64,000 nucleotides of DNA from the human T2T-CHM13v2.0 reference genome, Homo sapiens. The DNA lies in assembly GCF_009914755.1 (NCBI RefSeq), contig NC_060933.1; one strand, given 5' to 3'. The translations under genes and the position numbers were made by a program. This document shows positions 2,750 through 26,599 of this stretch, piece after piece. Each line of letters opens with the position of its first letter. The first letter of the stretch is position 1. The notes below the pieces were generated by a model. It was not told the origin of the DNA. It saw only the letters and a list, made by a program, of their open reading frames with translations, and searched no databases.

Positions 2750-5700
2750 GAATGGAATGGAATGGAATGGAGTGGAATGGAATGGAATGGAATGGGATGG
2801 AATGGAATTGAATGGATCAATATGCATGCAATGGAATGGAAAGGAATGGAATCAAATCGAATCAACTCGAGTGGAATGGAATGGAGTGGAATGGAATGGA
2901 ATGGATTGGAATGGAATGCAATGGAATGGAATGGAATGGCATCAACAAGATTGGAATGGAAGAGAATGGAATGGAATGAAATGGAAAAGAATGGAATTAA
3001 CTGGAGTGGAATGGAAAGGAATGGAATGGAATGGAATGGAATGGAATGGAATGGAATGGAATGGGGTGGAATGGAATTGAATGGATCAACATGCATGCAA
3101 TGGAATGGAATGGAATGGAATGGAATAGAATGGAATGGAATTGAATCGAATCAACACGAGTGGAATGGAATATAATGGAATTGAATGGAATGGATTGGAA
3201 TGGAATGGAATATAATGGAATGGAATGGAATGGAATCAACCCGAGTGGAATGGAATGGAATGGAATGGAATGGAATGGAATGGAATGGAATGCATTGGAA
3301 AGTATGGAATTAACAGGAGTGGAATGGAAAGGAATGGAATGGAATGGAATGGAATGGAATTGAATGAACCCAAGTGGAATGGAATGAATTGGAATGGAAT
3401 GGAATGGAATTGAATGGAATGGAATCAACTAGAATGGAGTGGAATGGAAAGGAATGGAATCAACCCGAGTCGAGTGGAATGGAATGGAATGGAATCCACC
3501 CGAGTAGAATGTAATGGAATGGAATGGAATACAATATAATTGAATGGAGTGGAACGGAATCATAGCGAGATGAATGGAATGGAATAGAACGGAATGCAAT
3601 GGAATGGAATGGAATGGAATGGAATGAAATGGAATGGAATGGAATGGAATGGAATGGAATCAACCCGACTGGAATGGAAACGAATGGAATGGAATGGAAA
3701 GGAATGCGATGGAATGAACGCGAGTGGAATGGAATACAGCGGAATGGAAAGGAATGGCATGGAATGCAATAGAATGGAATGAAATGGAATGGAACAAAAC
3801 CTAGTGGAACGGAATAGAATGGAAAGGAATGGAATGGAAACCAAGGGAATGCCATGGAATCACCCCGAGTGGAATGGAATGGAATGGAATGGGATGATCT
3901 ACATGAAAGGAATGGAAAGGAGTGCAATGGAATGGAATGGAATGGAATGGAATCAACAAGAGTGGAATGGAATGGAATGGAATGTAAAGGAATGGAATGG
4001 AATCAACTGCAATGGAATGGAATGGAATGAAATGGATTGGAATAAACCGCAGTGGAACGGAATGGAATGGAAAGAAACGGAATGGAATGGAATCAAACTG
4101 AATCGCATGGAATGGAATGGAATGCAATGAAGTCGAGTGGAATGGAATGTAATGGAATGGAATTGAATGGAATGGAATGGAATGGAATGGAATGGAATGG
4201 AAAGGAATGGAATGGAATGGAATGGAATCAAACAGAGTGGAATGGAATGGAATGGAATGGAATGGAATGGAATAAACTGGAATGGAATGCAATGGAATGG
4301 AATGGAATCAACCCGAGTGGAATGGAATGGAATGGAATGGACTGGAATGGAATGGAATGGAATGCAATGGAATGGAACGGAATGGAATGGAATCCAACAG
4401 AAAGGAATGGTATGGAATGGAATGGAGTGAAATGGAATGGAAAGGAATGGAATGGAATGGAACAGGATGGAATCAACACGAGAGGAATGATATGTAACGG
4501 AATGGAATGGAATGGAATGGAATGGAATGGAATGGAATGGAATGGAATGGAATGGAATGCAAAGGAATGGAATGGAATGGATTGGAGTGAAACGAAGCGG
4601 AAAGGAATGGAATGGAATGGAATGGAAAGGAATCCATTGGAATGGAATGGAAGCAACCCGACTGGAATGGAATGGAATGGAATTTAAATGGATTGGATTG
4701 GAATCGAATTGAATGAAATGGAATGGAACCAACCCAAGTGGAATGGAATGGAATTGAATAGAATGGAATGGAATAGAATCAACCCATGGGCAATGGAAAG
4801 GAATGGAATGGAATGGAATGGATTGGAATGGAATAGAATCAACAGTAATGCAAAGGAATGGAATGGAATGGAATGGCATGGAATGGAATGCAATGGAATG
4901 GAAAGGAATGGAATCAACCCGAGTGGAATGGAATGGAGTGGAATGAAAGGGAATGGAATGGAATCAAGTTGAATGCAATGGAATGGAATGGAATGGAATA
5001 GAATGGAATGGAATTGAATCGAATCAACTCGAGTGGAATGGAATGGAATGGAACGGATTGGAATGGAATGGAATGGAATGGAATGGAAACAACCCGAGTG
5101 GAATGGAATGGAATGGAATGGAATGGATTGGAAAGGAATGCAATTAACCGGAGTGGAATGGAAAGGAATAGAAAGGAATGGAATGGAATGGAATGGGTTG
5201 GAATGCAATTATATGGATCAACATGCATGCAATGGAATCGAATGGAATGCAATGGAATAGAATGGAATGGAATGGAATTAATCAACTCGAGTGGAATGGA
5301 ATGGAATGGAATGGATTGGAATGGAATGGAATGGAATGGAATGCAATGGAATGGATTGGAATGGAATGGAATGGAATGGAATGGAATGGAATGGAATCAA
5401 CCCGAGTTGAATGGAAGGGAATGGAATGGAATTGAATGGAAAGGAATGGAATTAACCAGAGTGGAATGGAAAGGAATGGAATGGAATGGAATAGAATGGA
5501 ATGGAATGGAATGGAATGGAATGGAATGGAATGGAGTTTAATGGAATGGAATGGAGTGGAATGGAATGGAATGGAATGGGGTGGAATGGAATGGAATGGA
5601 ATGGAATGGAATGGAATGGAGTGGAATGGAGTGGAATTGAGTATAATGGAATGGAATGCAATGGGATGGAATGGAATTGAATGGAGCAACATACATGCAA

Positions 5701-8490
5701 TGGAATGGAAAGGAATGGAATCAAATCAAATCAACTCGAGTGGAATGGAATGGAATGGAATGGAATGGAATGGAATGGAATGGAATGGAATGGATTGGTA
5801 TGGAATGCAATGGAATGGAATGGAATGGAATCAACAAGATTGGAATGGAAGAGAATGGAATGGAATGAAATGGAAAAGAATGGAATTAACCGGAGTGGAA
5901 TGGAAAGGAATGGAATGGAATGGAATGGAATGGGGTGGAATGGAATTGAATGGATCAACATGCATGCAATGGAATTGAATGGAATGGAATGGAATAGAAA
6001 GGAATGGAATTGAATCGAATCAACTCGAGTGGAATGGAATGGAATGGAATTGAATGGAATGGATTGGAATGGAATGGAATGAAATGGAATGGAATGGAAT
6101 CAACCCGAGTGGAATGGAATGGAATGGAATGGAATGGAATGGAATGGAATGGAATGGAATGGATTGGAAAGGTATGGAATTAACAGGAGTTGAATGGAAA
6201 GGAATGGAATGGAATGCAATGGAATGGAATGAACCCAAGTGGAATGGAATGAATTGGAATGGAATGGAATGGAATGGAATGGAATGGAATCAACTAGAAT
6301 GGATTGGAATGGAAAGGAATGGAATCAACCCGAGTTGAAAGGAATGGAATGGAATGGAATGGAATGGAATGGAATGGAATGGAATCCCCCCGAGTAGAAT
6401 GGAATGGAATGGAATGGAATACAATAGAATTGAAAGGAGTGGAACGGAATCATTGCGAGATGAATGGAATGGAATAGAACGGAATGCAATGGAATGGAAT
6501 GGAATGTAATGAAATGGAATGGAATGGAACTGAATGGAATGGAATCAACCCGACTGGAATGGAAACGAATGGAATGGAATGGAAAGGAATGCGATGGAAT
6601 GGAATGAACGCGAGTGGAATGGAATACAGCAGAATGGATAGGAATGGCATGGAATTCAATAGAATGGAATGAAATGGAATGGAACAAAATCTAGTGGAAC
6701 GGAATAGAATGGAAAGGAATGGAATGGAAACCAAGGGAATGCCATGGAATCACCCCGAGTGGAATGGAATGGAATGAATGGGATGATCTACATGAATGGA
6801 ATGGAAAGGAGTGCAATGGAATGGAACGGAATGGAATGGAATCAACAAGAGTGGAATGGAATGGAATGGAATGTAAAGGAATGGAATGGAATCAACTGCA
6901 ATGGAATGGAATGGAATGAAATGGACTGGAATAAACCGCAGTGGAACGGAAAGGAATGGAAAGAAACGGAATGGAATGGAATCAAACTGAATCGAATGGA
7001 ATTGAATGGAATGCAATGAAGCCGAGTGGAATGGAATGTAATGGAATAGAATTGAATGGAATGGAATGGAATGGAACGGAATGTAAAGGAATGGAATGGA
7101 ATGGAATGGAATGAAATGGAATGGAATGGAATCAAACAGAGTGGAATGGAATGGAATGGAATGGAATGGAATCAAACAGAGTGGAATGGAATGGAATGGA
7201 ATGGAATGGAATGGAATGGAATAAACTGGAATGGAATGCAATGGAATGGAATGGAATCAACCCGAGTGGAATGGAATGGAATGGAATGCAATGGAATGGA
7301 ATGGAATGGAATGCAATGGAATGGAACCGAATGGAATGGAATCCAACAGAATGGAATGGTATGGAATGGAATGGAATGAAATGGAATGGAAAGGAATGGA
7401 ATGGAATGGAACAGGATGGAATCAACACGAGAGGAATGATATGTAACGGAATGGAATGGAATGGAATGGAATGGAATGGAATGGATTCGAATCGAATCGA
7501 ATGGAATGGAATCTTCCCGAGTGGATTGGAATGGAATGGAATGGAATGGAATGGAATGGAATGGAATGGAATGCAAAGGAATGGAATGGAATGGAATGGA
7601 GTGAAACAAAGTGGAAAGGAATGGAATGGAATGGAATGGAATGGAAAGGAATGGAATGGAATGGAATGAAATCAACCCGACTGGAATGGAATGGAATTTA
7701 AATGGAAAGGATTGGAATCGAATTGAATGCAATGGAATGTAATCAACCCAAGTGGAATGGAATGGAATTGAATAGAATGGAATGGAATGGAATCAACCCA
7801 AGGGCAATGGAAAGGAATGGAATGGAATGGAATGGAATCAACACGAATGCAATGGAATGGAATGGAATGGAATGGCAAGGAATGGAATGCAATGGAATGG
7901 AATGGAATGGAATGAACCCGAGTGGAATGGAATGGAATGAAATGGAAGGGAATGGAATGTAATCAACTTGAATGCAATGGAATGGAATGGAATGGAATGG
8001 AATGGAAAACAATGGAATGGAATTGAATCGAATCAACTTGAGTGGAATGGAATGGAATGGAATGGATTGGAATGGAATGGAATGGAATGGAAACAACCCG
8101 AGTGGAATGGAATGGAATGGAATGGAATGGATTGGAAAGGAATGGAATTAACCGGACTGGAATGGAAAGGAATGGAAAGGAATGGAATGGAATGGGTTGG
8201 AATGGAATTGTATGGATCAACATGCATGCAATGGGATCGAATGGAATGGAATGGAATAGAATGGAATGGAATGGAATCTAATCAACTCGAGTGGCATGGA
8301 ATGGAATGGAATGGATTGGAATGGAATGGAATGGAATGGAATGGAATGGAATGGAATGGAATGGAATGGATTGGAATGGAATGGAATGGAATGGAATTGA
8401 ATGGAATCAACCCGAGTGGAATGGAAGGGAATGGAATGGAATTGAATGGAAAGGAATGGAATTAACCAGAGTGGAATGGAAAGGAATGGA
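2750..8490 (+). repeat. ~2.9-3.0 kb tandem duplication (two copies) within the left array
   Basis: Rare variant strings recur in the same order: CAT(A/T)GCGAGATGAATGG 3561/6451; CCAAGGGAATGCCATGGAATCACCCCGAGT 3841/6731; GGGATGATCTACATGAA 3891/6780; ATTAACCAGAGTGG 5451/8461. Boundaries are approximate. Confidence 0.85.
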
Positions 8491-9539
8491 ATGCAATGGA
8501 ATGGAATCAACTGGAATGGAATGGAATGGAATGGAATGGAATTGAATGGAATCAACTGGAATGGAATGAATGAGAATGGAATGGAATGCAAGGGAATGGA
8601 ATGGAATAGAATGGAATGGAATGGAATGGAATCAACCCGAGTGGAATGGAATGCAATGGAATGATATGGAATTTACTGAAATGGAATCTAATTAAATAGA
8701 ATGGAGTGGAATCAACCCGAGTGGAATAGAAAGGAATGGAATGGGATGGAACGGAATGGATTGGAATCAACTGGAATGGAATGGAATGGAATCAACAGGA
8801 ATAGAATGCAATGGAATGGAATGGAATGGAATGGAATCAACTGGAATCGAATGGAATGAAATTAAATAGAATGGAATGGAATATAATGGAATGGAATCAA
8901 CCCGAGTCTAATGGAATGGAATGGAATGGAATGGAATGGAATGGAATGGAATGGAATGGAATGGAATCAGCACGTGCTGAATGGAATGGAATGGAATGGA
9001 ATGGAATTGAATGGAATGGAATGGAATGGAATGGAATGGAATGGAATGGAATGGAATCCACACGAATGGAATGGAATGGAATCGAATGGAGTGGAATGGA
9101 ATGAAATGGAATTGAATGGAATAGAATCTACCCGCGTGGAATGGTATGGAATGGAATGGAATAGAATGGAATGGAATGGAATGGAATCAACACGAGTGGA
9201 ATGGAATGGAATGGAATGTAAAGGAATGGAATGGAATCAACTGCAATTTAATGGAATGGAATGAAATGGATTGGAATAAACCGCAGTGGAACGGAATGGA
9301 ATGGAAAGAAACGGAATGGAATGGAATCAAACTGAATCGAACGGAATTGAATGGAATGCAATGAAGCTGAGTGGAATGGAATGTAATGGAATGGAATTGA
9401 ATGGAATGGAGTGGAACGGAATCACCCCAAGTGGAATGGAATGAAATGGAATGGAATGGAATGGAAAGGAATGGAAACGAATGGAATGGAATGGAATGGA
9501 ATCAAACAGAGTGGAATGGAATGGAATGGAATGAAATGG

Positions 9540-10600
9540 AATGGAATGGAATGGAATGGAATAAACTGGAAAGGAATGCAATGGAATGGAATGGAATCAA
9601 CCCGAGTGGAATGGAATGGAATGGAATGTAATAGAATGCAATGGAATGTAACGGAATGGAATGGAATCCACCAGAATGGAATGGTATGGAATGGAATGGA
9701 ATGAAATGGAATGGAAAGGAATGTAATAGAATGGAACAGGATGGAATCAACACGAGAGGAATGATATGTAAAGGAATGGAATGGAATGGAATGGAATGGA
9801 ATGGAATGGAATGGAATCGAAAGGAATGGAATCTTCCCGAGTCGAATGGAATGGAATGGAATGGAATGGAATGGAATGGAATGGAATGAAATGGAATGGA
9901 ATGGAATGGAATGGAATAAACTGGAAAGGAATGCAATGGAATGGAATGGAATCAACCCGAGTGGAATGGAATGGAATGTAATAGAATGCAATGGAATGTA
10001 ACGGAATGGAATGGAATCCACCAGAATGGAATGGTATGGAATGGAATGGAATGAAATGGAATGGAAAGGAATGGAATAGAATGGAACAGGATGGAATCAA
10101 CACGAGAGGAATGATATGTAAAGGAATGGAATGGAATGGAATGGAATGGAATGCAATGGAATGGAATCGAAAGGAATCTAATCTTCCCGAGTCGAATGGA
10201 ATGGAATGGAATGGAATGGAATGGAATGAAATGGAATGGAATGGAATGGAATGGAATAAACTGGAAAGGAATGCAATGGAATGGAATGGAATCAACCCGA
10301 GTGGAATGGAATGGAATGGAATGGAATGGAATAGAATGCAATGGAATGTAACGGAATGGAATGGAATCCACCAGAATGGAATGGTATGGAATGGAATGGA
10401 ATGAAATGGAATGGAAAGGAATGGAATAGAATGGAACAGGATGGAATCAACACGAGAGGAATGATATGTAAAGGAATGGAACGGAATGGAATGGAATGGA
10501 ATGGAATGGAATGGAATGGAATGGAATCGAAAGGAACGGAATCTTCCCGAGTCGAATGGAATGGAATGGAATGGAATGGAATGGAATGGAATGGAATGGA
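9540..10600 (+). repeat. ~350-bp unit, three tandem copies
   Basis: ATGGAACAGGATGGAATCAACACGAGAGGAATGATATGTAAAGG at 9731, 10081 and 10431. CCAGAATGGAATGGTATGG at 9671, 10021 and 10371. Confidence 0.9.
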
Positions 10601-11329
10601 GTGGAATAGAATGGAATGGAATGGAATGGAAACAACTCGTGTGGAATGGAATGGAATGCAATTGAATGGAATGCAATCAACCCTAGTGGAATGGAATGGA
10701 ATGGAATAGAATGGAATGGAAAGCAATGGAATGATCGAAATGAAATGGAATGTAATCAACATGCATGGAATGGAATGGAATGGAATGGAATGGAGTGGAA
10801 TGGAATGGAATGGGGTGGAATGGAATGGAATGGAATGGAATTTAATGGAGTGGAATGGAATTGAAAGGAATGGGGTGGAATGGAATTGAATGGATCAACA
10901 TGCATGCAACTTAATGGAATGGAATGGAATCGAATCGAATCAACTCGAGTGGAATGGAATGGAATGGAATGGAATGGATTGGAATGGAATGCAATGGAAT
11001 GGAATGGAATGGAATCAACCTGAGTGGAATGGAATGGAATGAAATGGAAAGGAATGGAATTAACCGGAGTGGAACGGAAAAGAATGGAATGGAATGGAAT
11101 GGAATGGAATGGAATGGGGTGGAATGGAATTGAATGGATCAACATGCATGCAATGGAATGGAATGGAATGGAATGGAGTGGAATGGAATGGAATGGAATC
11201 CACAGGAGTATAATGGAATGGAATGGAATGGAATGGAAACAACTGGAGTGGAACTTAATGGAAAGGAATGGAATGGAATGGAATGGAATGGAGTGGAATC
11301 GAATGGAATGGAGTGGAATGGAATGGAAT

Positions 11330-12190
11330 GGAATCCACAGGAGTAGAATTGAATGGAATGGAATGGAGTGGAATGGAATGGAATGGAAACAACCGGTGTG
11401 GAACTGAATGGAAAGGAAAGGAATGGAATGGAATGGAATGGAATGGAATGGAATGGAATCAACCCGAGTGGAATGGAAGGGAATGGAATGCAATGGAAGG
11501 AAATGGAATCAACCCGAGTGGCGTGGAGTGGAATGGAATCGAATGGAATTTAATGGAAAGCAATGAAATGGAATTGAATGGAATGGATTGGAATGTAATG
11601 GAATGGAATCAAACCTAGTGCAATGGAATGGAACGGAATGGAATGGAATGGAATGGAATGGAATCAACCCGAGTGCAATGGAATGGAATGGAATGGAATG
11701 GAGTCTACCAGAATGGAATGGAATGGAAAGGAATGGAATGGAATGGAATGGAATGGAATGGAATGGAATGGAATGGAATCAACCCGAGTGCAATGGAATG
11801 GAATGGAATGGAATGGAATCTACCAGAATGGAATGGAATGGAATGGAATGGAATGGAATGGAATTCACAGGAGTAGAATGGAATGGAATGGAATGGAATG
11901 GAATGGAATGGAATGGAATGGAATGGAAACAAAAGGAGTGGAACTGAATGGAAAGGAATGGAATGGAATGGAATGGAATGGAATGGAATGGAATGGAATC
12001 AACCCGAGTGGAATGGAAGGGAATGGAATGCAATGGAAGGAAATGGAATCAACCCGAGCGGCGCGAAGTGGAATGGAATCGAATGGAATTTAATGGAAAG
12101 CAATGAAATGGAATTGAATGGAATGGATTGGAATGTAATGGAATGGAATCAAACCTAGTGCAATGGAATGGAACGGAATGGAATGGAATG
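11330..12190 (+). repeat. Duplicated ~300-bp block at 540-bp spacing
   Basis: GAACTGAATGGAAAGG 11401/11941; TAATGGAAAGCAATGAAATG 11551/12091; AAACCTAGTGCAATGG 11611/12151. Confidence 0.85.
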
Positions 12191-13145
12191 GAATGGAATG
12201 GAATGGAATGGAATGGAATCAACCCGAGTGGAAAGGAATGGAAAGCAGTAGGATGGAATGGAATGGCAAGAACCCGAGTGGAATGGAATGGAATGGAATG
12301 GAACTCAATGGAATGGAATCAACTGGATTGGAATGGAAAGGAATGGAATCGAATGAAATCGAGTGAACCTGATTGGAATGGAATGGAATGGAATGGAATG
12401 GAATGGAATGGAATGGAATGGAATGGAAACTACCAGAATGGAATGGAATGGAATGGGATCGAATGGAGTGGAGTGGAATGAAATGGATTGGGACGGAATG
12501 GAATCAATTCCTCTGGAATGGAATGGAATGAAATGCAATGCAATGGAATGGAATGGAATGAAATTGAATGGAATGGAATGGTATGAAATTGTATGGAATG
12601 GAATGGAATGGAAAGGAATGGAATGGAATGGAATGGAATTGAATGGAATGGAATCCACACGAGTGAAATGGAATGGAATGGAATGGAATTAGATGGATTT
12701 GGTTGGAACGCAATGCAATGGAATGGAATAGAAATGAATGGAAAGGAATGGAAAGCAGTGGAATGGAATGGAATGGAATGGAATGAAATGGAATGGAATG
12801 GAATCCACACGAATGGAATGGAATGGAATGGAATGGAGTTAAACGGATTGGATTGGAATGCAATGGAATGGAATGGAATGGAATGGAATAGAATGGAATG
12901 CAATGTAATGGAAAACAGTGGAATGGAATGTAATCAACTGGATAGGAATGGAATGGAATGGATTGGAATGGAATCCACGTGAGTTGAATGGAATGGAAAG
13001 GAATTGAATGAAATGGAATGGAATTGAATAGAAGGGAATCATATCAACCCTAGTGGAACGGAAAGGGATGGAATGATATGGAATTGAATTGAATCAACAG
13101 GAGTGGTATGGAGTGGAAATGAATGGAGTGGAATGGAATGGGAAG

Positions 13146-13205
13146 GAACCAGAACACGAAATCGAACCCGAACCTGAACCCAAACCCTAACCCTAACCCT
13201 AACCC
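13146..13205 (-). repeat. Short interstitial telomeric sequence (canonical plus variant hexamers) at the array strand switch
   Basis: + strand reads GAACCA GAACAC GAAATC GAACCC GAACCT GAACCC AAACCC TAACCC TAACCC TAACCC (ten hexamers). The - strand reads GGGTTA x3, GGGTTT, GGGTTC and then degenerate units. It is the only 6-bp-period sequence seen in the window. Confidence 0.9.
13179..13205 (-). other. Potential telomeric G-quadruplex (five GGG tracts)
   Basis: The - strand reads GGGTTAGGGTTAGGGTTAGGGTTTGGG. This includes the 21-mer GGG(TTAGGG)3 (13185-13205), the core of the well-characterised human telomeric G4. Folding in vivo is not shown by the sequence. Confidence 0.7.
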
Positions 13206-13989
13206 ATTTGACTCGGTTTGATTCCATTGCATTCCATTCCTTTCCATTCCATTCCATTCCACTGGGGTTGATTCCATTCCATTCCATTCCATTCCATTCC
13301 CCTCATGTGTATTCCATTCCATTCCATTCCATTGCATTCCATTCCATTCCATTCCATTCCATTCCATTCCATTCTATTACATTCTGGTTGATTCCATTGC
13401 ATTCCATTCCATTCCATTCCATTCCATTCCATTCCCTTCCATTCCATTCCTTTCCACTAGTGTTGATTCCATTGCATTCCATTGCATTCCACTCCATGCA
13501 GGTTGATTCCATTCCATTCCAATCCATTCCATTCCAAATGGGTTGATTCCATTCGATTCCTTTCCATTCCATTCAATTCCGTTCCATTCCATTCCATTTC
13601 ATTCCATTTTTTCCATTCCATTTCATTCCATTTCTTTCCATTCCATTCCATTCAATTTCATTCAGGTTGATTAAATTCCATTGCATTCCATTCCGTTCCA
13701 TTCCATTCGGTTTGATTCCATTCCATTCCGTTCCATTCCGTTCCACTCAGGTTGATGCCATTCCATTCCATTCCTTTCCATTCCATTCCATTCCATTCCA
13801 TTCCATTCCATTCCATTCCATTCCATACCTTTGCATTCCATTTCATTCCATTCCATTCCATTCCATTCCACTCGGGTTAATTCCATTCCATTCCATTCCA
13901 TTGCATTCCCGTCCATTCCCTTCCATTCCACACGTGTTGATACCATGCCATAGCATTCCATTTCATTCCATTCCACTCCATTCGATTCC

Positions 13990-14920
13990 ATTCCATTCCA
14001 TTACACTCGGGTTGATTCCATTCCATTCCATTCCATTCGAATCCACTTGATTCCATTCTATTCCATTCCATTCCATTCCATTCCATTCAACTCCTTTCCA
14101 TTGCATTCCACTCGGGTTGATTCTATTCCAATCCAATCCATTCCATTCCGTTCCATTCCATTCCATTACATTCCATTCCACTCGGGAAGATTCCATTCCA
14201 TTCGATTCCATTCATTTACATTCCATTCCACTCTCGTTGATTCCATTCCAATTCCAATGCATTCCGTTTCATTCCATTTCATTACATTTCATTCCATTCA
14301 ATTCTATTCCTTTCGGATTGATTACATTCCATTGCATTCCATTCCGTTCCATTCCATTCGGATTGATTCCATAACATTCCATTCCATTGCTTTCCATTCC
14401 ATTCCATTCCATTCCATTCCATTCCATTCCATTCCATACTATTCCATTCTATTCCATTCCATTCCATTACACTCGGGTTGATTCCATTCCATTCCATTCC
14501 ATTCGAATCCACTTGATTCCATTCTATTCCATTCCATTCCATTCCATTCCATTCAACTCCTTTCCATTGCATTCCACTCGGGTTGATTCTATTCCAATCC
14601 AATCCATTCCATTCCGTTACATTCCATTCCATTACATTCCATTCCACTCGGGAAGATTCCATTCCATTCGATTCCATTCATTTACATTCCATTTCACTCT
14701 CGTTGATTCCATTCCAATTCCAATGCATTCCGTTTCATTCCATTTCATTACATTTCATTCCTTTCAATTCTATTCCTTTCGGATTGATTACATTCCATTG
14801 CATTCCATTCCATTCCATTCCATTCGGGTTGATTCCATAACATTCCATTCCATTGCTTTCCATTCCATTCCATTCCATTCCATTCCATTCCATTCCATTC
14901 CATTCCATTCCATACTATTC
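13990..14920 (-). repeat. 466-bp near-identical tandem duplication
   Basis: TTACACTCGGGTTG...TTCGAATCCACTTGA at 14001 and 14467. The ORF track gives near-identical translations at 14117 and 14583 (offset 466). Confidence 0.9.
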
Positions 14921-17900
14921 CATTCTATTCCTGTCCATTCCATTCCACTCGGGTTGATTCCATTCCATTCTGTTCCTTTCCATTCCATTCCATTCCATTC
15001 CATTCCATTCCATTCCTCTCGTGTTGATTCCATTCAATTCCATTCCATTCCATTGAATTCCACTCCGATCCATTCCATTCCACTCGGGTTCTTGCCATTC
15101 CATTCCATTCCATTCCATTCCTTTTCTTTCCATTCCACTCGGATTGATTCCATTCCATTCCATTCCATTCCATTCCATTCCATTCCAGTCCATTGCACTG
15201 GGTTTGATTCCATTCAATTCAATTCCAAACCATTCCATTCAATTCCATTTGATTGCTTTTCATTGCATTCCATTCCATTCCATTCCACTCCACTCCACTC
15301 GGGTAGATTCCATTACCTTGCATTCCATTCCATTCCCTTCCATTCCACTCGGGGTGATTCCATTCCATTGCATTCCATTCCATTCCTTTCCATTCCATTC
15401 CACTCGTGTTGATTCCATTCCATTCCATTCCATTCCATTCCATTCCTTTCCATTCCATTCCCATTCATTCCACTGGGGTTGATTCCATTCCATTCCATTC
15501 CATTCCATTGCATTCCATTCCATTCCATTCTAAACCATTCCATTCCATTCCATTACATTCCACACGGGTTGATTCCATTCTATTCCATTCCATTACTTTC
15601 CATTCCATTCCACTCGGGTTGATTCCATTCCTTTCCATTCTACTCCATTACATTCCCTGCTATTCCACTCGGAATGACTCCATTCCATTCTATTCCATTG
15701 CAATCCATTCCATTGCATTCAATTCCACTCGAGATGATTCCATTCCATTCCATTCCATTCCATTTCATTACATTCCATTCCAATCCATTCCATTCGGGAT
15801 GATTCTATTCAATTCCTTTCCACTCTATTCGATTCCATTCCATTCCACACCATTCCATACCCTTCCATTCCAATCTGGTTGACTCCATTACATTGAATTC
15901 CATTCCTTTCCATTTCTTTCCATTCCATTGCATTCCATTCCATTCCATTCCATTCCATTCCATTCCATTCCATTCCATTCTATTCCTTTACATTCCACTC
16001 TGTTTGATTCAGTTCCATTCCATTCCATTCCACGCGAGTTGATTCCATTCCATTCTATTCCATTTCATTCCATTCCACTCCATTCGATTCCATTCCATTC
16101 AGTTCCATTTGGGTAGATTCCATTCCTTTTCATTCCATTCCATTCCATTCCATTCTGGTAGATTCCATTCCATTCCATTCCATTCCATTGCACTCGGGTT
16201 GATTCCATTCCATTCCATTCCATTCCATTCTTTTCCATTCCATTCCACTCGGGGTGATTCCATTTCATTCCATTCCATTCCATTCCATTCCATTCCATTC
16301 CATTCCATTCCCTTCCATTCCACTCGGATTGATAACATTCCTTTCCATTCCACTCGATTACATTCCCTTCTATTCTACTCGGAATGATTCCATTCCATTC
16401 CATTCCATTCCATTGCAATCCATTCCATTGCATTCCATTCCATTAAATTGAATTCCATTGCAATACATTCCATTCCATTCCATTCCATTCGGTTCCATTC
16501 CATTCCTTTCCATTCGAGTTGATTCTATTCAATTCGTTTACACACCATTCCATTCCATTCCATTCCACACAATTCCATTCGATTCCATTCCATTCCAATC
16601 GGGTTGAATCCATTCCATTCCATTTCACTCCATTCCATTCTATTCCATTCCATTCCAGTACATTTCATTCCCTTCCATTCAACTCGGGTTCAATCAATTC
16701 CATTCAATTCCTTTCCATTCCATTTAATTTTATTCCATTCCATTCCATTCCAGTTGATTCCATTCCATTCCATTCCATTCCATTACACTCGGGTTGATTC
16801 CATTCCATTCCATTTCAGTATTTTCCATTCCAGTAAATTCTATTCCATTAAGTTCCATTCCACTCGGGTTGTTTACATTCCATTCCATTCCATTCCATTC
16901 CATTCCATTCCATTCCCATTCATTCCACTGGTGTTGAGTCCATTCCATTCCATTCCAATCCATTCCATTCCAGTTTATTCCATTCCATTCCATTCCATTC
17001 CATACCAATCCATTCCATTCTACTGCATTCCACACTGGTTGATTCCATTCCATTCAATTCCCTTCCTTTCCATTCCATTCCACTCGGATTGATTCCATTC
17101 TTTTCCATTCCATCTATTACTTTACCTGCTCTTCCACTCTTAATGATTCCATTCCATTTCATTCCATTCCATTCCAACCCATTCCTTTCCATTCCATTCC
17201 ACTCGAGTTGATTCCATTCCATTCCGTTGATTCCATTCCATTCCATTCCATTCCAATCCATTCCATTAGTCTTGATTCTATTCAATTCCTTTCCACTCCA
17301 TTCCATTCAATTCCATTCCACTCTGTCTGATTCAGTTCCATTCCATTCCATTCCACGTGAGTTGATTACATTCCATTCTATTCCGTTTCATTCCATTCCA
17401 CTCCATTCGTTTCCATACCATTCCATTCCATTTGGGGAGATTCCTTTACATTCCATTACATTCCATTTCATTCCATTCGTGTATATTCCATTCCATTCCA
17501 TTCCATTTCATTCCACTCCACTCCATTGCACTCGGGTTGATTCCATTCCCTTCCATTCAATTCCATTCCAGTCCTCTCGGGTTGATTCCGTTCCATTCCG
17601 TTCCATTTCATTCCATTCCACTCCATTCGATTCCATTCAATTCCATTGCATTGGGGTAGATTCCATTCCATTCCATTCCATTCCATTCCATTCCACTCGG
17701 GTTGATTCCATTCCATTCCTTTCCATTCATTTCCATTCCATTCCACTTGATTCCATTCCATTGTATTCCATTCCACTGTATTCCATTCCATTCCATTCCG
17801 TTCCATTCCATTCCATTCCATTCCATTCCATTCCATTCCATTCCATTCCATTCCATTCCACTCGGGTTGATTCCATTCCATTCCATTCCATTCCATTCCA

Positions 17901-20900
17901 TTCCATTCCATTCCATTCCACTCGGGTTGATTCCATTCCATTCAATTCCATTCCATTCCACTCCTTTCCATTCCATTCCACTCAGATTCATTCCATTCCA
18001 TTCTATTCCATTCCACACCATTCCATTCCCTTCCATTCCAATCAGGATGATTCCATTCCATTCAATTCCATTCCATTCCATTTCTTTCCATTCCATTCTA
18101 TTCCATTCCAATCCATTCCATTCCATTCCATTCCACTCTGTTTAATTCAGTTCCATTCAATTCCATTCCGAACGATTTGATTCCATTCCATTATATTCCG
18201 TTTCATTCCATTCTACTCCATTCGATTCGATTCCATTCCATTCCATTCGGGTAGATTCCATTCCATTCCATTCCATTCTATTGCATTCCATTACATTACC
18301 TTCCACTCGGGTTTATTCTATTCCATTCCACTCCATTCCATTCCATTCCGTTATATTCCATTCCACTCGAGTTGATTCCATTGCATTACATTCCATTCCA
18401 CTGCATTCCATTCAATTCCATTCTATTCCATTCGTTTAGATTCCATTCCATTCCATTCCATTCCATTCCTTTCCATTCCATTACACTCGGCTTCATTCAA
18501 TTCCATTCCATTCAATTATATTCCACTGCATTCCTTTCCATTCCATTCTACTCGGGGTGATTCCATTGCATTCCATTCTATTCCATTCCACTCCATTCCA
18601 TTCCACTTTGTTTCACTCCATTCCATTCCATTCCATTCCATTCCATTCCATTCCATTCCATTCCATTGCATTCCATTCCAATCCATTCCATTCCATTCCA
18701 ATTCGGTTGAATCCATTCCATTCCATTTCGTTCCATTCCATTCTATTCCGTAGCATTCCATTCCATTCCATTCCATTCCATTCCATGCTATTCCACTCGG
18801 TTTGTTTCCTTTCCATTCAATTCCATTCGGGTTGATTATATTCCATTCCATTCCATTCCATTCCATTCCATTCCATTCCATTCCATTGCACTCGGGTTGA
18901 TTCCATTCCATTCCACTACATTCCATTCCATTCCATTCCATTCCATTCCATTCCACTCCATTCCATTCGGGATGATTCCATTCCATTCCATTTCATTCCA
19001 TTCCATTCCATTCCATTCCATTCCATTTCATTCCATTCCATTCCATTCCATTCCATTCGATTCCTCTCGAGTTGATTCCATTTCATTCCTTTCCATTCCA
19101 TTCCATTCCCTTCCATTCCACTCGGGTTGATTCCATTCCTTTCCATTCCATTGGATTACATTCCCTTCCATTCCACTCGGAATGATTCCATTCCATTCCA
19201 TTGCAATCCATTCCAATCCATTCCATTCCATTCCATTCCACTCGAGTTGATTCCATTCCATTCCATTCCATTCCATTCCATTCCGTTCCATTCCAATTGG
19301 GTTGAATCAATTTCTTTCAATTTCGTTCCATTCCATTAGATTCCGAACCATTCAGTTGCATTCCATTCCCTTCCTTTCCATGCCATTCCACTCGGGTTGA
19401 TTCCACTTCATTCCATTCTATTCGGGTTGGTTCCATTCCATTGCACTCGAGTTGATTCCATTTCATTCCATTGCATTCCATTCCATTCCATTCCATTCCT
19501 TTCCATTCCATTCCACTCGAGTTGATTCCATTCTATACTTTTCCATTTCCTTCCATTCCCTTCCATTCCACTCGGGGTGATTCCATTCCTTTCCATTCCA
19601 CTCGAATACATTCCCTTCTATTCAACTCGGAATGATTCCATTCCATTCCATTCCATTCCATTCCATTCCATTCCATTCCATTCCATTTCGTTGCATTCCA
19701 TTCTATTCCATACCATTCCATTCCATTCCATTCCATTGCATTCCATTCCATTCCATGCCATTCCACTCGGGTTGATTCCATTCCTTTCCACTCCATTCGG
19801 GTTGAATCCATTTCATTCCATTCCATTCCATTCAATTGCACTCGGGTTGATTCCATTCCATTCCATTCCATTTCATTCCATTCCATTCCATTCCATTCCA
19901 TTCCACTCCATTCCATTCGGGTTGATTCCATTCCATTCCATTCCATTCCATTCAACTCTGTTTGATTGAGTTCCACTCCATTCCATTCCATGCGATTTGA
20001 TTCCATTCCATTCTATTCCGTTTCATTCCATTCCACGCCATACTATTCCATTACATTCCATTCCACTTGGGTACATTCCATTCCATTCCATTGCATTCCA
20101 TTCCCTTCCATTCCACTCGGGTTGATTCCATTCCTTTCCATTGCACTCGATTACATTCCCTTCCATTCCACTCGTAATGATTCCTTTCCATTCCATTGCA
20201 CTCCATTCCATTCCATTCCATTCCATTCCACTCGAGTTGATTCTATTCCATTCCATTGCATTCCATTCTGTTCCATTCCATTCCTTTCCATTCCATTCCA
20301 TTCCATTCCATTCGGGTTGATTCTATTCAATTCCTTTACACTCCTTTCCATTCCATTCTATTCCACACAATTCCATTCCAATCCATTCCATTCCAATTGG
20401 GTTGAATCAATTTCATTCCACTTCGTTCCATTCCTTTCTATTCCGTACCATTCCATTCCATTCCATTTCCTTTCCATTCCATGCCATTCCACTCAGGTTG
20501 ATTCCATTTCATTCCATTCTATTCGGGTTGCTTCCATTCCATTCCATTCCATTCCATTCCATTCCATTGCACTCGAGTTGATTCCATTCCATTCCATTCC
20601 ATACCATTTTATTCCTTTCCATTCCATTCCACTGCGGTTCATTCCATTCCATTCCTTTCCATTCCATTCCCTTCCATTCCACTCGGGTTGATTCCATTCC
20701 TTTCCATTCCACTCGATTCCATTCCCTTCCATTCCACTCGGAATGATTCCCTTCCAGTCCATTCCCTTCCATTCCCTTCCCTTGCATTCCATTCCAATGC
20801 ATTCCATTCCATTCCATTCCACTCGAGTTGATTCCATTCCATTCCATTCCATTCCATTCCATTCCGTTCCGTTCCATTCAATTCCATTCCATTCAGGTTG

Positions 20901-23900
20901 ATTCTATTCAATTCTTTACACTCCATTCCATTCTCTTCAATTCCACACAATTTCATTTCATTCCATTCCATTCCATTCCATTCCAATCGGGTTGAATCCA
21001 TTCCATTGCATTTCGTTCTATTCCATTCTATTCAATACCATTCCATTCCATTCCATTCCTTTCCATTCCATGCCATTCCACTCGGGTTGATTCCATTTCA
21101 TTCCATTCTATTCGGGTTGATTCCATTCCATTCCATTCCTTTCCATTCCATTCCTTTGCACTCGAGATGATTCCATTCCATTCCATTCCATTACATTCCT
21201 TTCGATTCCACTCCACTCGGGTTGATTCCATTCTATTCCTTGCCATTCCAATCCATTCCCTTCCATTCCACTGGGGATGATTCCATTCCTTTCCATTCCA
21301 CTCGAATACATTCCCGTCTATTCCACTCGGAAAGATTCCATTCCATTCCATTCCATTCCATTCCATTCCATTCCATTCCATTCCTTTTCGTTCCATTCCA
21401 TTCTATTCAGTACCATTCCATTCCATTCCATTCCATTGCCTTCCATTCCATTCTTTTCGATAACATTCTATTGCACTCGTGTTGATTCCGTTCCATTCCA
21501 TTCCATTCCATTGCATTCCACTCCATTCCACTCTGTTTGATTCCGTTGCATTCCATTCAATTCCACGCGATTTGATTCCATTCCATTCTATTCCGTTTCA
21601 TTCCATTCCACGCCATACGATTCCATTACATTACATTCCACTCGGATACATTCCATTCCGTTCCATTCCATTCCATTCCATTCCATTCTGGTAGATTCCA
21701 TTCCATTCCATTCTATTGCATTCCATTCCATTCCATTCCATTCCACTCGGGTTGATTCCATTCCTTTCCATTCCACTCGATTACATTCCCTTCCATTCCA
21801 CTCGGAATGATTGCATTCCATTCCATTCCATTCCATTCCATTCCATTACATTACATTACATTACATTGCACTTGGGTTGATTCCATTCCTTTCCATTCCA
21901 CTCGATTACATTCCCTTCCATTCCACTCGGAGTGATCCCACTCCATTCCATTGCATTTCATTGGAATCCATTCCAATCCATTCCATTCCATTCCATTCCA
22001 ATTGTGTTGAATACATTCCATTCCATTTCGTCCCATTCCATTCTATTCCGTACCATTCTGTTCCATTCCATTCCATTCCATTCCATGCCACTGCACTCGG
22101 GTTGATTCCTTTCCCTTCCATTCCATTCGGGTTGATTATATTCCACTCCATTCCATTCCATTCCATTCCATTCCATTCGATTGCACTCGGGTTGATTCCA
22201 TTCCATTCCTTTCCGTTCCATTCCATTCCTTTCCATTCTATTGGACTCGAGTTGATTCCATTCCATTCCATTCCATTCCATTCCATTCCATTCCATTCCA
22301 TTCCTTTCCACTCGGGTTGATTCTATTCCATTACTTTCCATTCCATTCCATTCCATTCCATACCCCTCGTGTTGATTCCATTCCTTTCCATTCCATTCGA
22401 TTACATTCCCTTCCATTCCACTCGGAATGATTCCATTCCATTACATCACATTCAATTCCAACCCTTTCCCTTCCATTCCATTCCACACGAGTTGATTCCA
22501 TTCCATTCCACTCCATTGCATTCCATTCCATTCCATTCCATTCCTTTCCATTCAATTCCACTCTGGTTGATTCCATTCTATTCTTTTCCATTCCATTTCG
22601 TTTCCTTCCATTCAACTCGGGTTGATTCCATTCCTTTCCGTTCCACTCGAATACATTACCTTCTATTCCACTCGGAATTATTCCACTCCATTCCATTTCA
22701 TTCCATTCCATTCCATTCCATTTCGTTCCATTCCATTCTATTCCGTACCATTCCATTCCATTCCTTTCCATTCTATTGCATTCCATGCCATTCCACTCGG
22801 GTTGATTCCATTCCTTTCCATTCCATTCGGGTTGAATCCATTCCTTTCCATTCCATTCCATTCGATTCCATTCCATTGCACTCGGGTTGATTCCATTCCA
22901 TTCCATTCCATTCCATTCCATTCCATTCCATTCCATTCCATTCCATTCCGCTCCGCTCCATTCCATTCGGGATGATTCCATTCCATTCCATTCCATTCCA
23001 TTCCATTCCATTCCACTCTGTTTGATTCAGTTCCATTCCATTCTATTACAAGCGATTTGATTCCATTCCATTCTATTCCGTTTCATTCCATTCCACGCCA
23101 TAAGATTCCATTCCATTCCACTCCATTCGGGTAAATTCCATTCCATTCCATTACATTCCATTCCATTACATTGCATTCCATTCCATTCTGGTAGATTCCA
23201 TTCCATTCCATCCCATTCCATTCCATTCCATTCCATTCCATTGCATTCCATTCCATTCCTTTGCACTCGGGTTGATTCCTTTCCTTTCCATTCCACTCGA
23301 TTACATTCCCTTCCATTCCACTCGGAATGATTCCAGTCCATTAGATTCCTTTCCATTGCATTCCATTCCAATCCATTCCATTCCACTAGAGTTGATTCCA
23401 TTCCATTCCATTCTATTCCATTCCGTTCCTTTCCATTCCATTCCATTCCATTCCGTTCCATTCGGGTTGATTCTATTCAATTCCTTTACAATCTATTCCA
23501 TTCCATTCCATTCCATTTCATTCGGGTTGATTCTATTCAATTCCTTAACAATCTATTCCATTCCATTCCATTCCATTCAATTCCATTCCATTCCATTCCA
23601 CTGCAATTGTGTTGAATCCATTTCATTCCATTTCGTTCCATTCCATTCTATTCTGTACAATTCCATTCCATTCATTTCCTTAAAATTCCATGCCATTCCA
23701 ATCGGGTTGATTCCATTTCATTCCATTCTATTCGGGTTCATTCCATTCCATTCCATTCCATTCCATTCCATTCCCATCCGCTCCGTTTCATTCCATCACA
23801 TTCCATTCGGATTGATTCTATTCAATTCCGTTACACTCCATTCCATTCCATTCCATTCCACACAATTCCATTCCATTCCATTCCATTCCAAGTGGGTTGA

Positions 23901-26599
23901 ATGCATTCTATTCCATTTCGTTCCATTCATTTCTATTCCAATCCTTTCCATTCCATTACATGCGATTCCATTCCATGCCTTTCTACTCGGGTTGATTCCA
24001 TTCCATTCCATTCCATTCCATTCCATTCCATTCCATTCCATTCCTTTCCATTCCTCTCGGGTTGATTCCATTCCATTCCTTTCCATTCCATTCCATTCCC
24101 TTACATTCCACTTGGGTTGATTCCATCCATTTCCATTCCACTCGATTACATTCCCTTCCATTCCACTCGGAATGATTCCATTCCGTTCCATTGCATTCCA
24201 TTCCAATCCTTTCCATACCATTCCATTCCACTCGAGTTGATTCCATTTCATTCCATTCGATTACATTCCTTTCCATTCCATTCCATTACATTACATTCTA
24301 TTCCATTCCATTCGGGTTGATTCTATTCAATTGTTTACACTCCATTCCATTCCACTCCATTCCACACAATTCCATTCCATTACATTCCATTCCATTCCAT
24401 TTGGGTTGAATCCATTCCATTCCATTTCATTCCATTCCATTCTGTTCCGTATCATTCCATTCCATTCCATTCCATTCCATTCCATTCCATTCCATTCCAT
24501 TCCACTGCATTCCGTTCCATTCCATTCCATTCCTTTCCTTTCCATTCCATGCCATTCCACTTGGGTTGATTTCATTCAATTCCATTCTATTCTGGTTGTT
24601 TCCATTCCATTCCATTCCATTCCATTCCGTTGCACTTCATTTGATTCCGTTCCATTCCATTCCATACCATTCCATTCCACTCGAGTTGATTCCATTCCAT
24701 TCCATTCCATTGCATTCCATTCCATTCAATTCCATTCCATTCCATTCGGGTTGATTCTATTCAATTCTTTACACTCCATTCCATTCCATTCCATTCCACA
24801 AAATTCCATTCCATTCCATTCCAATTGGGTTGAATCAATTCCATTCCATTTCGTTCCATTCCATTCTATTCCGTACCATTCCATTCCATTCCATTACATT
24901 GCATTCCTTTCCATTCCATTCCATTCGGGTTGATTCTATTCAATTACTTTACACTGCATTCCATTCCATTCCTTTGCACACAATTCCATTGCTTTCCATT
25001 CCATTCCAATTGGGTTGAATCCATTCCGTTCCTTTTCGTTCCATTCCACTCTATTCCGTACCATTCCATTCCATTCCATTCGTTTCCATTCCATGCCATT
25101 CCACTCGGGTTGATTCCATTCCATACCGTTCCATTCCATTCCATTCCATTCTATTCGCGTTAATTCCATTCAATTTCATTCCATTACCTTCCATTGCAAT
25201 CGAGTTGATTCCATTCCATTCCATTCCATTCTATTCAATTCAACTCCTTTCCATTCCATTCCACTCGTGTTGATTCCATTTTATTGGTTTCCATTCCATT
25301 CCATTCCCTTCCATTCCACTCGGGTTGATTCCATTCCTTTCCATTCCACTCGAATACATTCAATTCTGTTCCACTCGGAGTGATTCCATTCCATTCCATT
25401 CCATTCCAATTGGGTTGAATGCATTCCATTCCATTTCGTTCCAATCCATTCTATTCCGTACCATTCCATTCCTATCCATTTCATTCCATTCCATGCCATT
25501 CCACTCGGGAAGATTCCATTCCACTCCATTCCACTCGGGTTGATTCCATTCCATTCCATTCCATACAATTGCTCTCGGGTTGATTCCGTTACATTCTATT
25601 CCATTCCATTCCATTCCATTCCACTCCTTTCAATTCCTTTCCGTTTCATTCCACTCGGGTTGATTCCATTCCATTCCATTCCATTCCATTCCCTTCAATT
25701 CTCTTCCATTGCTTTCCATTCCAATCCATTCCATTCCATTCCATTCCACTCTAGTTGATTCCATTCCATTCCATTCCATTCCATTCCATTCCATTCCATT
25801 CCATTCCATTCCTTTCCATTCCACTCCACTCTGCTTGATTCCATTCTATTCTTTTCCATTCCTTTCCGTTCCCTTCCATTCCACTCGGGTTGATTCCATT
25901 CCTTTCCATTCCACTCGAATACATTCCCTTCTATTCCACTCGGAATTATTCCACTCCATTTCATTCCATTCCATTCCATTCCATTCCATTCCATTCCATT
26001 CCATTTCGTTCCATTCCATTCTATTCCGTACCATTCCATTCCTTTACTTTCCATTCTATTCCATTCCATGCCATTTCAATCGGTTTGATTCCATTCCTTT
26101 CCATTCCATTCGGGTTCAATCCATTCCATTCCATTCCATTCCATTCCATTCCATTCCATTCCATTCCATTCCATTGCACTCGCGTTGATTCCATTCCATT
26201 CCATTCCATACCATTCCATTCCATTCCATTCCATTCTGCTCCATTCCATTCGGTATGATGCCATTCCGTTCCATTCCATTCCATTCCATTCCATTTCATT
26301 CTGATAGATTCCATTCCATTCCATTCCATTCCATTCCATTGCACTAGGTTTGATTCCATTCCTTTCCATTACACTCGATTTCATTCCCTTCCTTTCCACT
26401 CGGAATGATTCCACTCCATTCCATTCCATTCCATTCCATTCCATTCCATTCCATTCCATTGCATTCCATTTCTTTCCATTCCATTCTATTCCGTACCATT
26501 CCATTCCATTCCTTTCCATTCCCTGCCATTCCACTCGGGTTGATTCCATTCCATTCCATTCCGTTCTATTCGGGTTGATTCCATTCCATTCCATTCCAT

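What the first reader, a model, noticed from the sequence alone, without database searches (positions are those of the whole stretch)
13146..13205. Telomeric repeats sit exactly at an HSat3 inversion breakpoint: a candidate telomerase-healed or fusion scar
Seen: in 64 kb of pentamer satellite the only foreign sequence is a 60-bp run of ten hexamers ending in (TAACCC)3, and it lies precisely where the array flips from GGAAT to CATTC. On the - strand the right array reads ...GGAATCAAACCGAGTCAAATGG-GTTAGGGTTAGGG, so its GGAAT strand runs 5'->3' straight into TTAGGG repeats with a shared GG at the join. That is the polarity telomerase would give when extending a broken 3' end. Established: short interstitial telomeric sequences are thought to be inserted during double-strand-break repair, and large HSat arrays in T2T assemblies contain internal inversions. 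Inference: a break in HSat3 was extended with (or captured) telomeric DNA and then joined to an oppositely oriented HSat3 end. That would be a mechanistic footprint for how satellite inversions form. I cannot tell from the sequence whether this particular junction has been described.
Basis: partly seen in the sequence, partly recalled or inferred. Interest (0 to 1): 0.85.

Follow-up and report, generated by a model that had tools for sequence, protein, structure and literature searches.

The report
Telomere repeats at HSat3 inversion junction
A one-off 60-base stretch of telomere-type repeats bridges one point where the chromosome 9 pentamer satellite flips strand; it looks like a scar of break repair, not a general rule for how satellite inversions form.

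Summary
The 64-kb window has one strand switch (GGAAT to ATTCC). A 60-bp run of ten hexamers (13146-13205) sits exactly in it, ending in (CCCTAA)3CCC.

The tract is single-copy in this assembly. It is the only interstitial place genome-wide where (CCCTAA)2 lies within 60 nt of an HSat pentamer array. The other satellite hit is the terminal chr13p telomere.

The other six units are TTCGGG-type variants. Clean TTCGGG blocks occur inside real telomeres of this genome. CGAACCC occurs nowhere else in 140 kb of HSat3.

Best reading (0.6): telomeric DNA was put in while a break was repaired, and that repair joined two oppositely oriented HSat3 ends. It was either copied or captured from an existing telomere, or added by telomerase. 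This is a known kind: a short interstitial telomeric sequence, or a telomere-spanning fusion.

It is not a general inversion mechanism. None of the 17 other close head-to-head switch loci has telomeric hexamers, and the main-array switches are amplified copies of a few direct joins.

I could not test read support, presence in other humans or apes, or whether it is a cell-line event (the line is hTERT-immortalised).

The parts
1..13145 (+). Left HSat3 block, GGAAT orientation on the + strand. It extends upstream to about window -4210 (17.3 kb in all).
   Evidence: Its best paralogs anywhere in the genome are only 73-78% identical, and most full-length alignments stop at query 789-805, which is window 13138-13154.
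13146..13154 (.). Ambiguous overlap zone. It can be read as the last HSat3 pentamers (GGAAC..) or as the first, most degenerate hexamers. It is possible microhomology at the left join.
   Evidence: The TRF hexamer array starts at 13146. HSat3 alignments end at 13148-13154.
13155..13184 (-). Variant hexamer block. In CCCTAA register on the + strand it reads CACGAA, ATCGAA, CCCGAA, CCTGAA, CCCAAA. CCAGAA at 13149-13154 precedes it. On the G strand these are TTCGGG-type units, changed at position 3.
   Evidence: CGAACCC occurs once in 139,689 bases of HSat3, at this tract only, against 449 TCAACCCGA. Clean (CCCGAA)n blocks lie inside real telomeres of this genome.
13185..13205 (-). Canonical telomeric repeats, (CCCTAA)3CCC on the + strand. 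The G strand is on the - strand and runs outward from the right-hand array.
   Evidence: The combination is unique in the genome.
13204..13205 (.). A 2-nt overlap (CC; GG on the - strand) shared by the telomeric tract and the HSat3 motif, in register with the hexamers.
   Evidence: seven chr9 HSat3 copies read ..CCATT then CCATTTGACTCGGG.
13206..64000 (-). Right HSat3 block, ATTCC orientation on the + strand, at least 50.8 kb.
   Evidence: Long-range identity to main-array copies is about 64-94% per 100 bp, mostly 75-87%.

Best explanation
The tract is a short interstitial telomeric sequence laid down during the repair event that joined two oppositely oriented HSat3 ends, so it marks an inversion junction.

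Proposed steps (all inferred):
1. A break left the right-hand array with a G-rich 3' end (...AAATGG on the - strand).
2. That end acquired telomeric repeats in register with its terminal GG.
3. The short tract was then joined to an HSat3 end of opposite orientation, probably through the GAAC-type overlap at 13146-13154.

For step 2 I favour copying or capture of a piece of an existing telomere that held a boundary between pure TTAGGG and a TTCGGG block. That could be templated synthesis primed on microhomology, or ligation of a fragment. I put this at about 0.35 of the 0.6. Direct synthesis by telomerase gets about 0.25.

Later point changes may have roughened the variant block. Two of them are CpG transitions: CCCGAA to CCTGAA and to CCCAAA.

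The event is a single-copy exception, not the way chr9 HSat3 inversions generally arise.
For: Shown:
- The tract sits exactly at the only strand switch in the window.
- The hexamer periodicity is foreign to the satellite.
- The telomeric repeats are far above chance.
- The 161-bp junction and its 39-nt core are unique in the 3.1-Gb genome, the core at up to 3 mismatches.
- I searched all four orientation combinations of (CCCTAA)2 with an exact pentamer dimer within 60 nt. The only hits are this junction, the terminal chr13p telomere, and one chr2 site whose matched string shows no satellite.
- There is a 2-nt in-register overlap at the right join.
- The variant units are not HSat3-like.
- A block of nine CCCGAA flanked by pure CCCTAA lies in the chr1p telomere, and similar blocks lie near many chromosome ends.
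- The arms are not mirror images, so this is not a fold-back duplication.
- In the same genome a real telomere caps an HSat3 array directly at chr13p, so HSat3 breaks can acquire telomeric repeats.

From papers:
- Short ITSs are inserted at break sites, with in-register microhomology in about 75-80% of informative loci (PMC2246262, abstract and section 9 read).
- Short inverted telomere tracts of about 48 bp mark arm fusions in cancer lines (10.1101/2023.11.30.569101, passages read).
- Microhomology was seen at 79% of telomere insertions with canonical repeats at the junction (10.1101/157560, passages read).
Against: - No empty-site ortholog or true paralog exists for either flank. The left flank's best match is 78%. 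The right flank matches well only over 57 nt and is about 80% beyond that. The overlap and breakpoints therefore rest on the HSat3 consensus, not on an ancestral allele.
- The six variant units are all different, whereas telomere blocks in this genome are clean. That needs later mutation or error-prone synthesis.
- Published short ITSs appear to have been inserted as exact hexamers (PMC2246262 abstract), which this tract is not.
- With pure repeats next to the array that has the right polarity and variants distal, the order is the reverse of a natural telomere base.
- The timing relative to the inversion is not shown.
- The partner breakpoint was not identified. Junctions A and B upstream are both direct joins, and either could pair with the other.
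- The chr9 HSat3 region was excluded from variant-based polishing and SV checks of the assembly (10.1101/2021.07.02.450803, passages read).
Confidence: 0.6

Rival explanations
1. ITS first, inversion later. A short telomeric insertion already sat in an uninverted HSat3 array. It later acted as a fragile site, and one inversion break fell at its edge.
For: The right join has the in-register overlap typical of an ordinary ITS insertion (PMC2246262 section 9). The left join is degenerate and could be secondary. That ITSs are break-prone is from general knowledge (recalled).
Against: No other fragment of the tract exists at junctions A or B or anywhere else next to HSat pentamers. No uninverted copy carries it. 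A break exactly at the ITS edge is required.
Confidence: 0.12
2. Relic of a working neotelomere. The right-hand HSat3 block was once a capped chromosome end, a healed break like chr13p in this genome. Its telomere evolved a TTCGGG block, eroded to about 60 bp, and then fused to another HSat3 end.
For: The polarity is 'standard' towards the right array and 'inverted' towards the left. That is the signature of telomere-spanning fusions (10.1101/2023.11.30.569101, passages read). A variant block next to pure repeats is a telomere-array feature. chr13p shows a telomere seated directly on HSat3.
Against: HSat3 matches on this contig run from 48.50 to 76.57 Mb. From memory, not from any call, I place the chr9 centromere to the left of the window. 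If that holds, in the present orientation the capped end faces the centromere, so the capped piece would be acentric unless later inversions reoriented it (inference). Variants lie distal to the pure repeats, the reverse of the usual telomere base. There is no subtelomeric or long telomeric remnant.
Confidence: 0.1
3. In situ microsatellite. A hexamer seeded by the HSat3 motif CAACCCGA, or by the novel junction sequence, expanded by slippage and resembles telomere repeats by chance.
For: AACCC is shared by the HSat3 motif and the telomere C strand, and AACCCGA occurs 281 times in the window. The TRF consensus is GAACCC, not TAACCC.
Against: The window holds 21 consecutive bases of perfect telomere repeat against 0.04 expected. 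CGAACCC occurs nowhere else in 140 kb of HSat3. There is no comparable period-6 array in 94 kb. The position exactly at the switch, and the match to a known telomere variant class, would both be coincidences.
Confidence: 0.06
4. Assembly artefact: a false join of two HSat3 contigs or a chimeric read.
For: The chr9 HSat3 region was excluded from small-variant and SV polishing (10.1101/2021.07.02.450803, passages read). I could not inspect reads.
Against: A misjoin happens at shared sequence and does not create 60 bp of unique hexamers. The tract must be present in reads. The flanks have plenty of unique sequence here, with no paralog above 78% on the left.
Confidence: 0.04

Closest known systems
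Short interstitial telomeric sequences inserted at double-strand-break repair sites (Nergadze et al. 2007, PMC2246262; the classification into short, subtelomeric and fusion ITSs is recalled, not read here)
   Same: It has a few hexamers, is interstitial, has a single orientation, and has in-register microhomology at the 3' side of the break. Both telomerase and capture have been proposed as sources.
   Different: Published cases are simple insertions between flanks that stay collinear, and they appear to have been inserted as exact hexamers. Here the flanks are in opposite orientation, both are satellite, and six of nine full units are position-3 variants.
Telomere-spanning chromosomal arm fusions and ectopic telomere insertions in cancer genomes (10.1101/2023.11.30.569101; 10.1101/157560)
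   Same: A short tract of about 50 bp is 'standard' in orientation to one flank and 'inverted' to the other. It lies at a rearrangement breakpoint with microhomology.
   Different: Those are somatic events, and the standard side is a natural subtelomere. Here the standard side is HSat3 and the locus is in a reference assembly. Whether it is germline or a cell-line event was not determined.
Chromosome healing / neotelomere, as at the chr13p end of this same assembly
   Same: Telomeric repeats are attached directly to HSat3 with a 3-nt overlap and no subtelomere.
   Different: chr13p carries about 2.5 kb of pure terminal repeats, and the ATTCC strand runs into TTAGGG. Here the tract is 60 bp and internal, and the GGAAT strand runs into TTAGGG.
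Inversion breakpoints (strand switches) of the chr9 HSat3B5 array (Altemose et al. preprint 10.1101/2021.07.12.452052, section 7 read: 'over 200 inversion breakpoints' in chr9 HSat3B5 and beta satellite arrays)
   Same: It is a head-to-head strand switch inside the chr9 HSat3 block.
   Different: The other junctions seen here are direct joins or carry a few filler bases, and many are amplified copies. This one is single-copy, carries a foreign insert, and lies in a diverged edge part of the block.
Head-to-head fusion ITS of human 2q13 (recalled)
   Same: Telomeric repeats mark an old joining of two chromosome pieces.
   Different: A fusion ITS has two arrays in opposite orientation. Here only one orientation is present.

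Membership tests
Short ITS (break-repair insertion class) | A short run of TTAGGG-type hexamers at an internal site, in one orientation | tested here: met
   ten hexamers, (CCCTAA)3CCC canonical, C strand on + throughout.
Short ITS (break-repair insertion class) | [quoted passage not shown] | tested here: met
   One search shows a 2-nt overlap (GG on the - strand). It is judged against seven HSat3 copies, not against an ancestral empty site.
Short ITS (break-repair insertion class) | Flanks are collinear in an empty ancestral or orthologous locus (a plain insertion) | tested here: not met
   The flanks are in opposite orientation. No empty-site paralog exists in this genome. Orthologs were not available.
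Short ITS (break-repair insertion class) | Inserted as exact hexamers (PMC2246262 abstract) | tested here: inconclusive
   Three and a half units are exact. Six units are variants that share a change at position 3. That is not what independent decay of exact units would give.
Telomere-spanning fusion | A short tract in standard orientation to one flank and inverted to the other | tested here: met
   the - strand of the right array runs 5'->3' into TTAGGG, and the + strand of the left array runs into the C-rich strand.
Telomere-spanning fusion | The standard-side flank is a former chromosome end (subtelomere or proven neotelomere) | not testable with these tools
   The flank is HSat3. No other assemblies or population data are held.
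Head-to-head fusion ITS (2q13 type) | Two telomere arrays in opposite orientation meeting head to head | tested here: not met
   there is no TTAGGG run on the + strand.
Fold-back inversion / inverted duplication | Arms that are mirror copies of each other around the junction | tested here: not met
   No enriched anti-diagonal at the junction. The best anti-diagonal is two consensus-like runs of 55 and 100 bp. The identity profile sits at about the level of unrelated HSat3 copies (compare), mostly 71-92% per 100 bp, with bins down to 50% at the aligned end.
ITS with a co-inserted telomerase-RNA fragment (TERC-ITS, PMC2246262) | Sequence retrotranscribed from telomerase RNA next to the repeats | not tested
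   No telomerase RNA sequence was fetched.
chr9 HSat3 strand switch (inversion breakpoint) | Change of pentamer strand within the chr9 HSat3 block | tested here: met
   HSat3 matches on this contig run from 48.50 to 76.57 Mb.

The most novel reading that the evidence does not exclude
The right-hand HSat3 block once ended in a working telomere. On this reading, chromosome 9 heterochromatin was broken and healed like the chr13p end of this same genome, carried a telomere long enough to evolve a TTCGGG block, and was then re-fused in inverted orientation. The 60 bp would be the only surviving trace of a former chromosome end inside 9q12.
Probability: 0.1. Interest if true: 0.7.

Novelty: new member of a known kind. 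Interest (0 to 1): 0.4.

Why it matters
Breakpoint-level scars inside megabase satellites are almost never interpretable, because the flanks are repeats. Here a unique foreign insert gives one HSat3 strand switch a readable junction with polarity and microhomology. It shows that telomeric DNA can take part in rearranging pericentromeric heterochromatin.

The tract is also a unique 60-bp marker in an otherwise marker-poor region. It can be used to ask whether this inversion is shared among humans and apes.

It does not explain the more than 200 chr9 switches. Those seen here are direct joins, and many have been amplified.

Tried and rejected
- A blastn of the left arm against the right arm timed out. 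I replaced it with k-mer anti-diagonal counts.
- Fold-back or inverted duplication is rejected. The one raised anti-diagonal (centre about 0.8 kb right of the junction) turned out to be two consensus-like runs.
- The left part of the tract as an ordinary HSat3 variant of GGAATCAACCCGA is rejected, because CGAACCC is absent from the rest of 140 kb of HSat3.
- The seven right-flank hits as true 'empty-site' paralogs is rejected. Identity is 95-96% only over 57 nt and about 80% beyond.
- A donor copy of the tract elsewhere in the genome was not found at up to 3 mismatches over 39 nt.
- Pairing junction C with junction A or B could not be decided. Both restorations give in-phase HSat3 (by inspection). 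K-mer spectra only show that A-B resembles B-C (0.93), and that the right block is slightly different (0.80-0.90).
- Wider flanks (140 kb) could not be fetched; 30 kb was fetched instead.
- Paper searches for HSat3 with 'interstitial telomeric', with TTAGGG, and with strand/inversion/chr9/breakpoint, plus passages of the Altemose preprint, gave no description of this junction. bioRxiv supplements, which include the inversion tables S6 and S7, are closed and may list the breakpoint.

Full report
**What is there.** The window is chr9:48732001-48796000 of the assembly held as G000. It is HSat3-type pentamer satellite throughout.
- GC skew is +0.63 to +0.76 in every 1-kb bin up to 13000 and -0.60 to -0.70 from 14001 on.
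- A 200-bp scan finds a single change of orientation. The longest stretch without an exact GGAAT or ATTCC is 13140-13220 (81 nt; the next is 55 nt).
- Between the two orientations lies a run of ten hexamers, 13146-13205. TRF reports period 6, 81% matches, consensus GAACCC.
- In CCCTAA register the run reads CCAGAA, CACGAA, ATCGAA, CCCGAA, CCTGAA, CCCAAA, then CCCTAA three times and CCC.
- CCCTAACCCTAA with up to one mismatch occurs only here. The expected count is 0.04, and 0 of 100 shuffles reached three matches.
- In 94 kb of contiguous satellite no other real period-6 array exists.

**Boundaries.** On the right, seven HSat3 copies elsewhere on chr9 share the motif that starts at 13204, at 95-96% over 57 nt. 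In them it is preceded by ..CCACTCCATT. HSat3 therefore starts at CC (13204-13205), and these two bases are also the end of the last telomeric unit. These copies are not true paralogs, because identity falls to about 80% beyond the motif.

On the left, an 826-base query ending inside the tract finds nothing better than 78% anywhere. Most full-length alignments stop at query 789-805, which is window 13138-13154. So 13146-13154 is an ambiguous overlap: a GGAAC-type pentamer or a degenerate hexamer.

**Is the variant part telomeric?** CGAACCC occurs once in 139,689 bases of HSat3 sampled from this region and from chr7 and chr9 loci, and that one occurrence is in the tract. The normal motif TCAACCCGA occurs 449 times.
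- (CCCGAA)3 with up to one mismatch has 294 matches in the genome (164 forward, 130 reverse). The listed rows (100 of 294, covering C1 to C17) all lie in clusters near the ends of contigs, for example 1.7-3.6 kb from the p-arm termini of C1, 2, 3, 4, 8, 9, 10, 11, 12, 15 and 17.
- In the chr1p telomere a clean block of nine CCCGAA sits between pure CCCTAA runs.
- TTCGGG and TTTGGG are known telomere variant repeats. Position-3 variants rise with telomerase-driven extension (PMC3919612, passages read).
- CCTGAA and CCCAAA are single CpG transitions away from CCCGAA (inference).

The whole 60 bp is best read as three and a half canonical units plus a decayed or error-prone TTCGGG-type block.

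**Uniqueness and association with the switch.** The 161-bp junction has one full-length match in the genome, which is itself. Its 39-nt core has one match at up to 3 mismatches. I searched (CCCTAA)2 against an exact pentamer dimer in all four orientation combinations, with gaps of 0-30 and 30-60 nt.

| Pattern tested | Matches | Matches with a true pentamer dimer |
|---|---|---|
| (CCCTAA)2, gap 0-30, ATTCCATTCC | 1 | this junction |
| (TTAGGG)2, gap 0-30, degenerate pentamer dimer | 33 (controls 29) | none |
| (TTAGGG)2, gap 30-60, degenerate pentamer dimer | 36 | this junction only |
| (CCCTAA)2, gap 0-30, GGAATGGAAT | 5 | all at C13:2507-2555 |
| (CCCTAA)2, gap 30-60, degenerate pentamer dimer | 36 | this junction, chr13p, one chr2 site whose matched string shows no satellite |

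The tool warns that such counts can be lower bounds.

**Other strand switches.** GGAATGGAAT, 0-30 nt, ATTCCATTCC gives 29 forward matches at 17 loci: chr7 (4), chr9 (10), chr10, chr14 and chr17. All are direct joins or carry a few filler bases, and none holds telomeric hexamers.
- With a 62-92 nt gap there are 648 matches, of which only the first rows are listed. Among those, this junction is the only one with a foreign insert. One direct junction type recurs at 51.07, 52.13, 52.35 and 52.55 Mb.
- Tail-to-tail switches give 371 matches, also partly listed. They are dominated by two recurrent junction types, one seen at ten or more places between 52.3 and 54.0 Mb.
- So the many chr9 switches reported in print ('over 200 inversion breakpoints', 10.1101/2021.07.12.452052, section 7 read) are largely amplified copies of a few events. 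They do not involve telomeric DNA.

**Neighbourhood.** Thirty kb fetched upstream shows two more switches:
- A at chr9:48706348, head-to-head, a direct join.
- B at about chr9:48727790 (window about -4210), tail-to-tail, a direct join.

The GGAAT block that ends at the tract is therefore 17.3 kb long. The A-B block holds young 4.2-kb tandem units. The B-C block and the first 17 kb right of the tract show no strong higher-order repeat. K-mer spectra put all local blocks closer to each other (0.80-0.95) than to the main-array samples taken at 54-70 Mb, L002-L008 (0.64-0.70). A-B and B-C are the closest pair (0.93). Which junction is the partner of the telomeric one is unresolved.

**Not a fold-back.** Anti-diagonal k-mer counts show no mirror symmetry around the junction. 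The one raised anti-diagonal is two consensus-like runs of 55 and 100 bp. Identity along it is mostly 71-92% per 100 bp (as low as 50% at the aligned end), about what unrelated HSat3 copies give.

**Mechanism.** The features shown are the tract's position, single orientation, polarity, 2-nt in-register overlap and short length. They match the published class of short interstitial telomeric sequences inserted during double-strand-break repair. In that class, in-register bases were found in about 75-80% of informative loci, against an expectation of 25% or less (PMC2246262, section 9 read).

They also match the orientation logic of telomere-spanning fusions in cancer lines. There, about 48 bp of inverted repeats mark the fusion of an arm with a short telomere to an internal break (10.1101/2023.11.30.569101, passages read).

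I infer that telomeric DNA was added to the right-hand HSat3 end and the product was joined to an inverted HSat3 end. The run of six units sharing a position-3 change is hard to get from stochastic telomerase errors or from independent decay. It resembles the block structure of real telomeres. I therefore favour copying or capture of existing telomeric DNA over fresh telomerase synthesis, but neither is excluded.

The same genome shows that HSat3 breaks can acquire telomeres. At chr13p about 2.5 kb of pure CCCTAA abuts an HSat3 array directly. [quoted passage not shown]

**Caveats.**
- The source line carries an hTERT vector (same paper), so a culture-acquired event cannot be excluded.
- The chr9 HSat3 block was excluded from variant-based polishing and SV checks (10.1101/2021.07.02.450803, passages read).
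- No reads, other human assemblies or ape assemblies are held here, so age, frequency and read support are untested.
- bioRxiv supplements with the inversion tables are closed.

**Verdict.** This is a real, unique and non-random feature. It is a new member of a known kind: a short telomeric insertion at a repair junction, here bridging an HSat3 inversion. It is interesting as a readable breakpoint scar and a unique marker in 9q12. It is not a general mechanism for satellite inversions.

Noticed in passing
L069 (G000:C13:2301-3300), junction at about C13:2543: The chr13 short-arm terminal telomere is pure CCCTAA up to the join and abuts an HSat3 array directly (..CCCTAAC then TCGGAATGGAAT..). 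There is no subtelomere and no variant zone, so it looks like a healed break in HSat3. The genome paper notes that chr13 lost half of the distal inverted satellite duplication and that the line carries an hTERT vector.
   Followed up: partly
G000 chromosome ends, e.g. C1:1869-1922, C2:1923-1964, C8:1928-1987, C9:3584-3625; L059: Clean blocks of (CCCGAA)n (TTCGGG) lie 1.7-3.6 kb from the termini of many arms, at rather similar distances from the ends. This may reflect synchronous synthesis in the telomerase-immortalised line rather than inherited proximal variants. I did not test this.
   Followed up: partly
G000:C9 51.07-54.0 Mb: Strand switches of the main chr9 HSat3 array recur as identical junction strings. 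One tail-to-tail type appears at ten or more listed places, and one head-to-head type at four. So most 'inversion breakpoints' are amplified copies of a few events.
   Followed up: partly
chr9:48706348 and about chr9:48727790 (window about -25650 and -4210; L056-L058): Two further strand switches lie just upstream of the window, and both are direct joins. The 21.4-kb block between them consists of young 4.2-kb tandem units.
   Followed up: partly
window 27706-36704: Diverged motifs in the right-hand array recur at about 4.0-4.1 kb spacing (for example 27706, 31726, 35836, and 30922, 34972). This indicates a local kilobase-scale repeat unit in part of the array.
   Followed up: no
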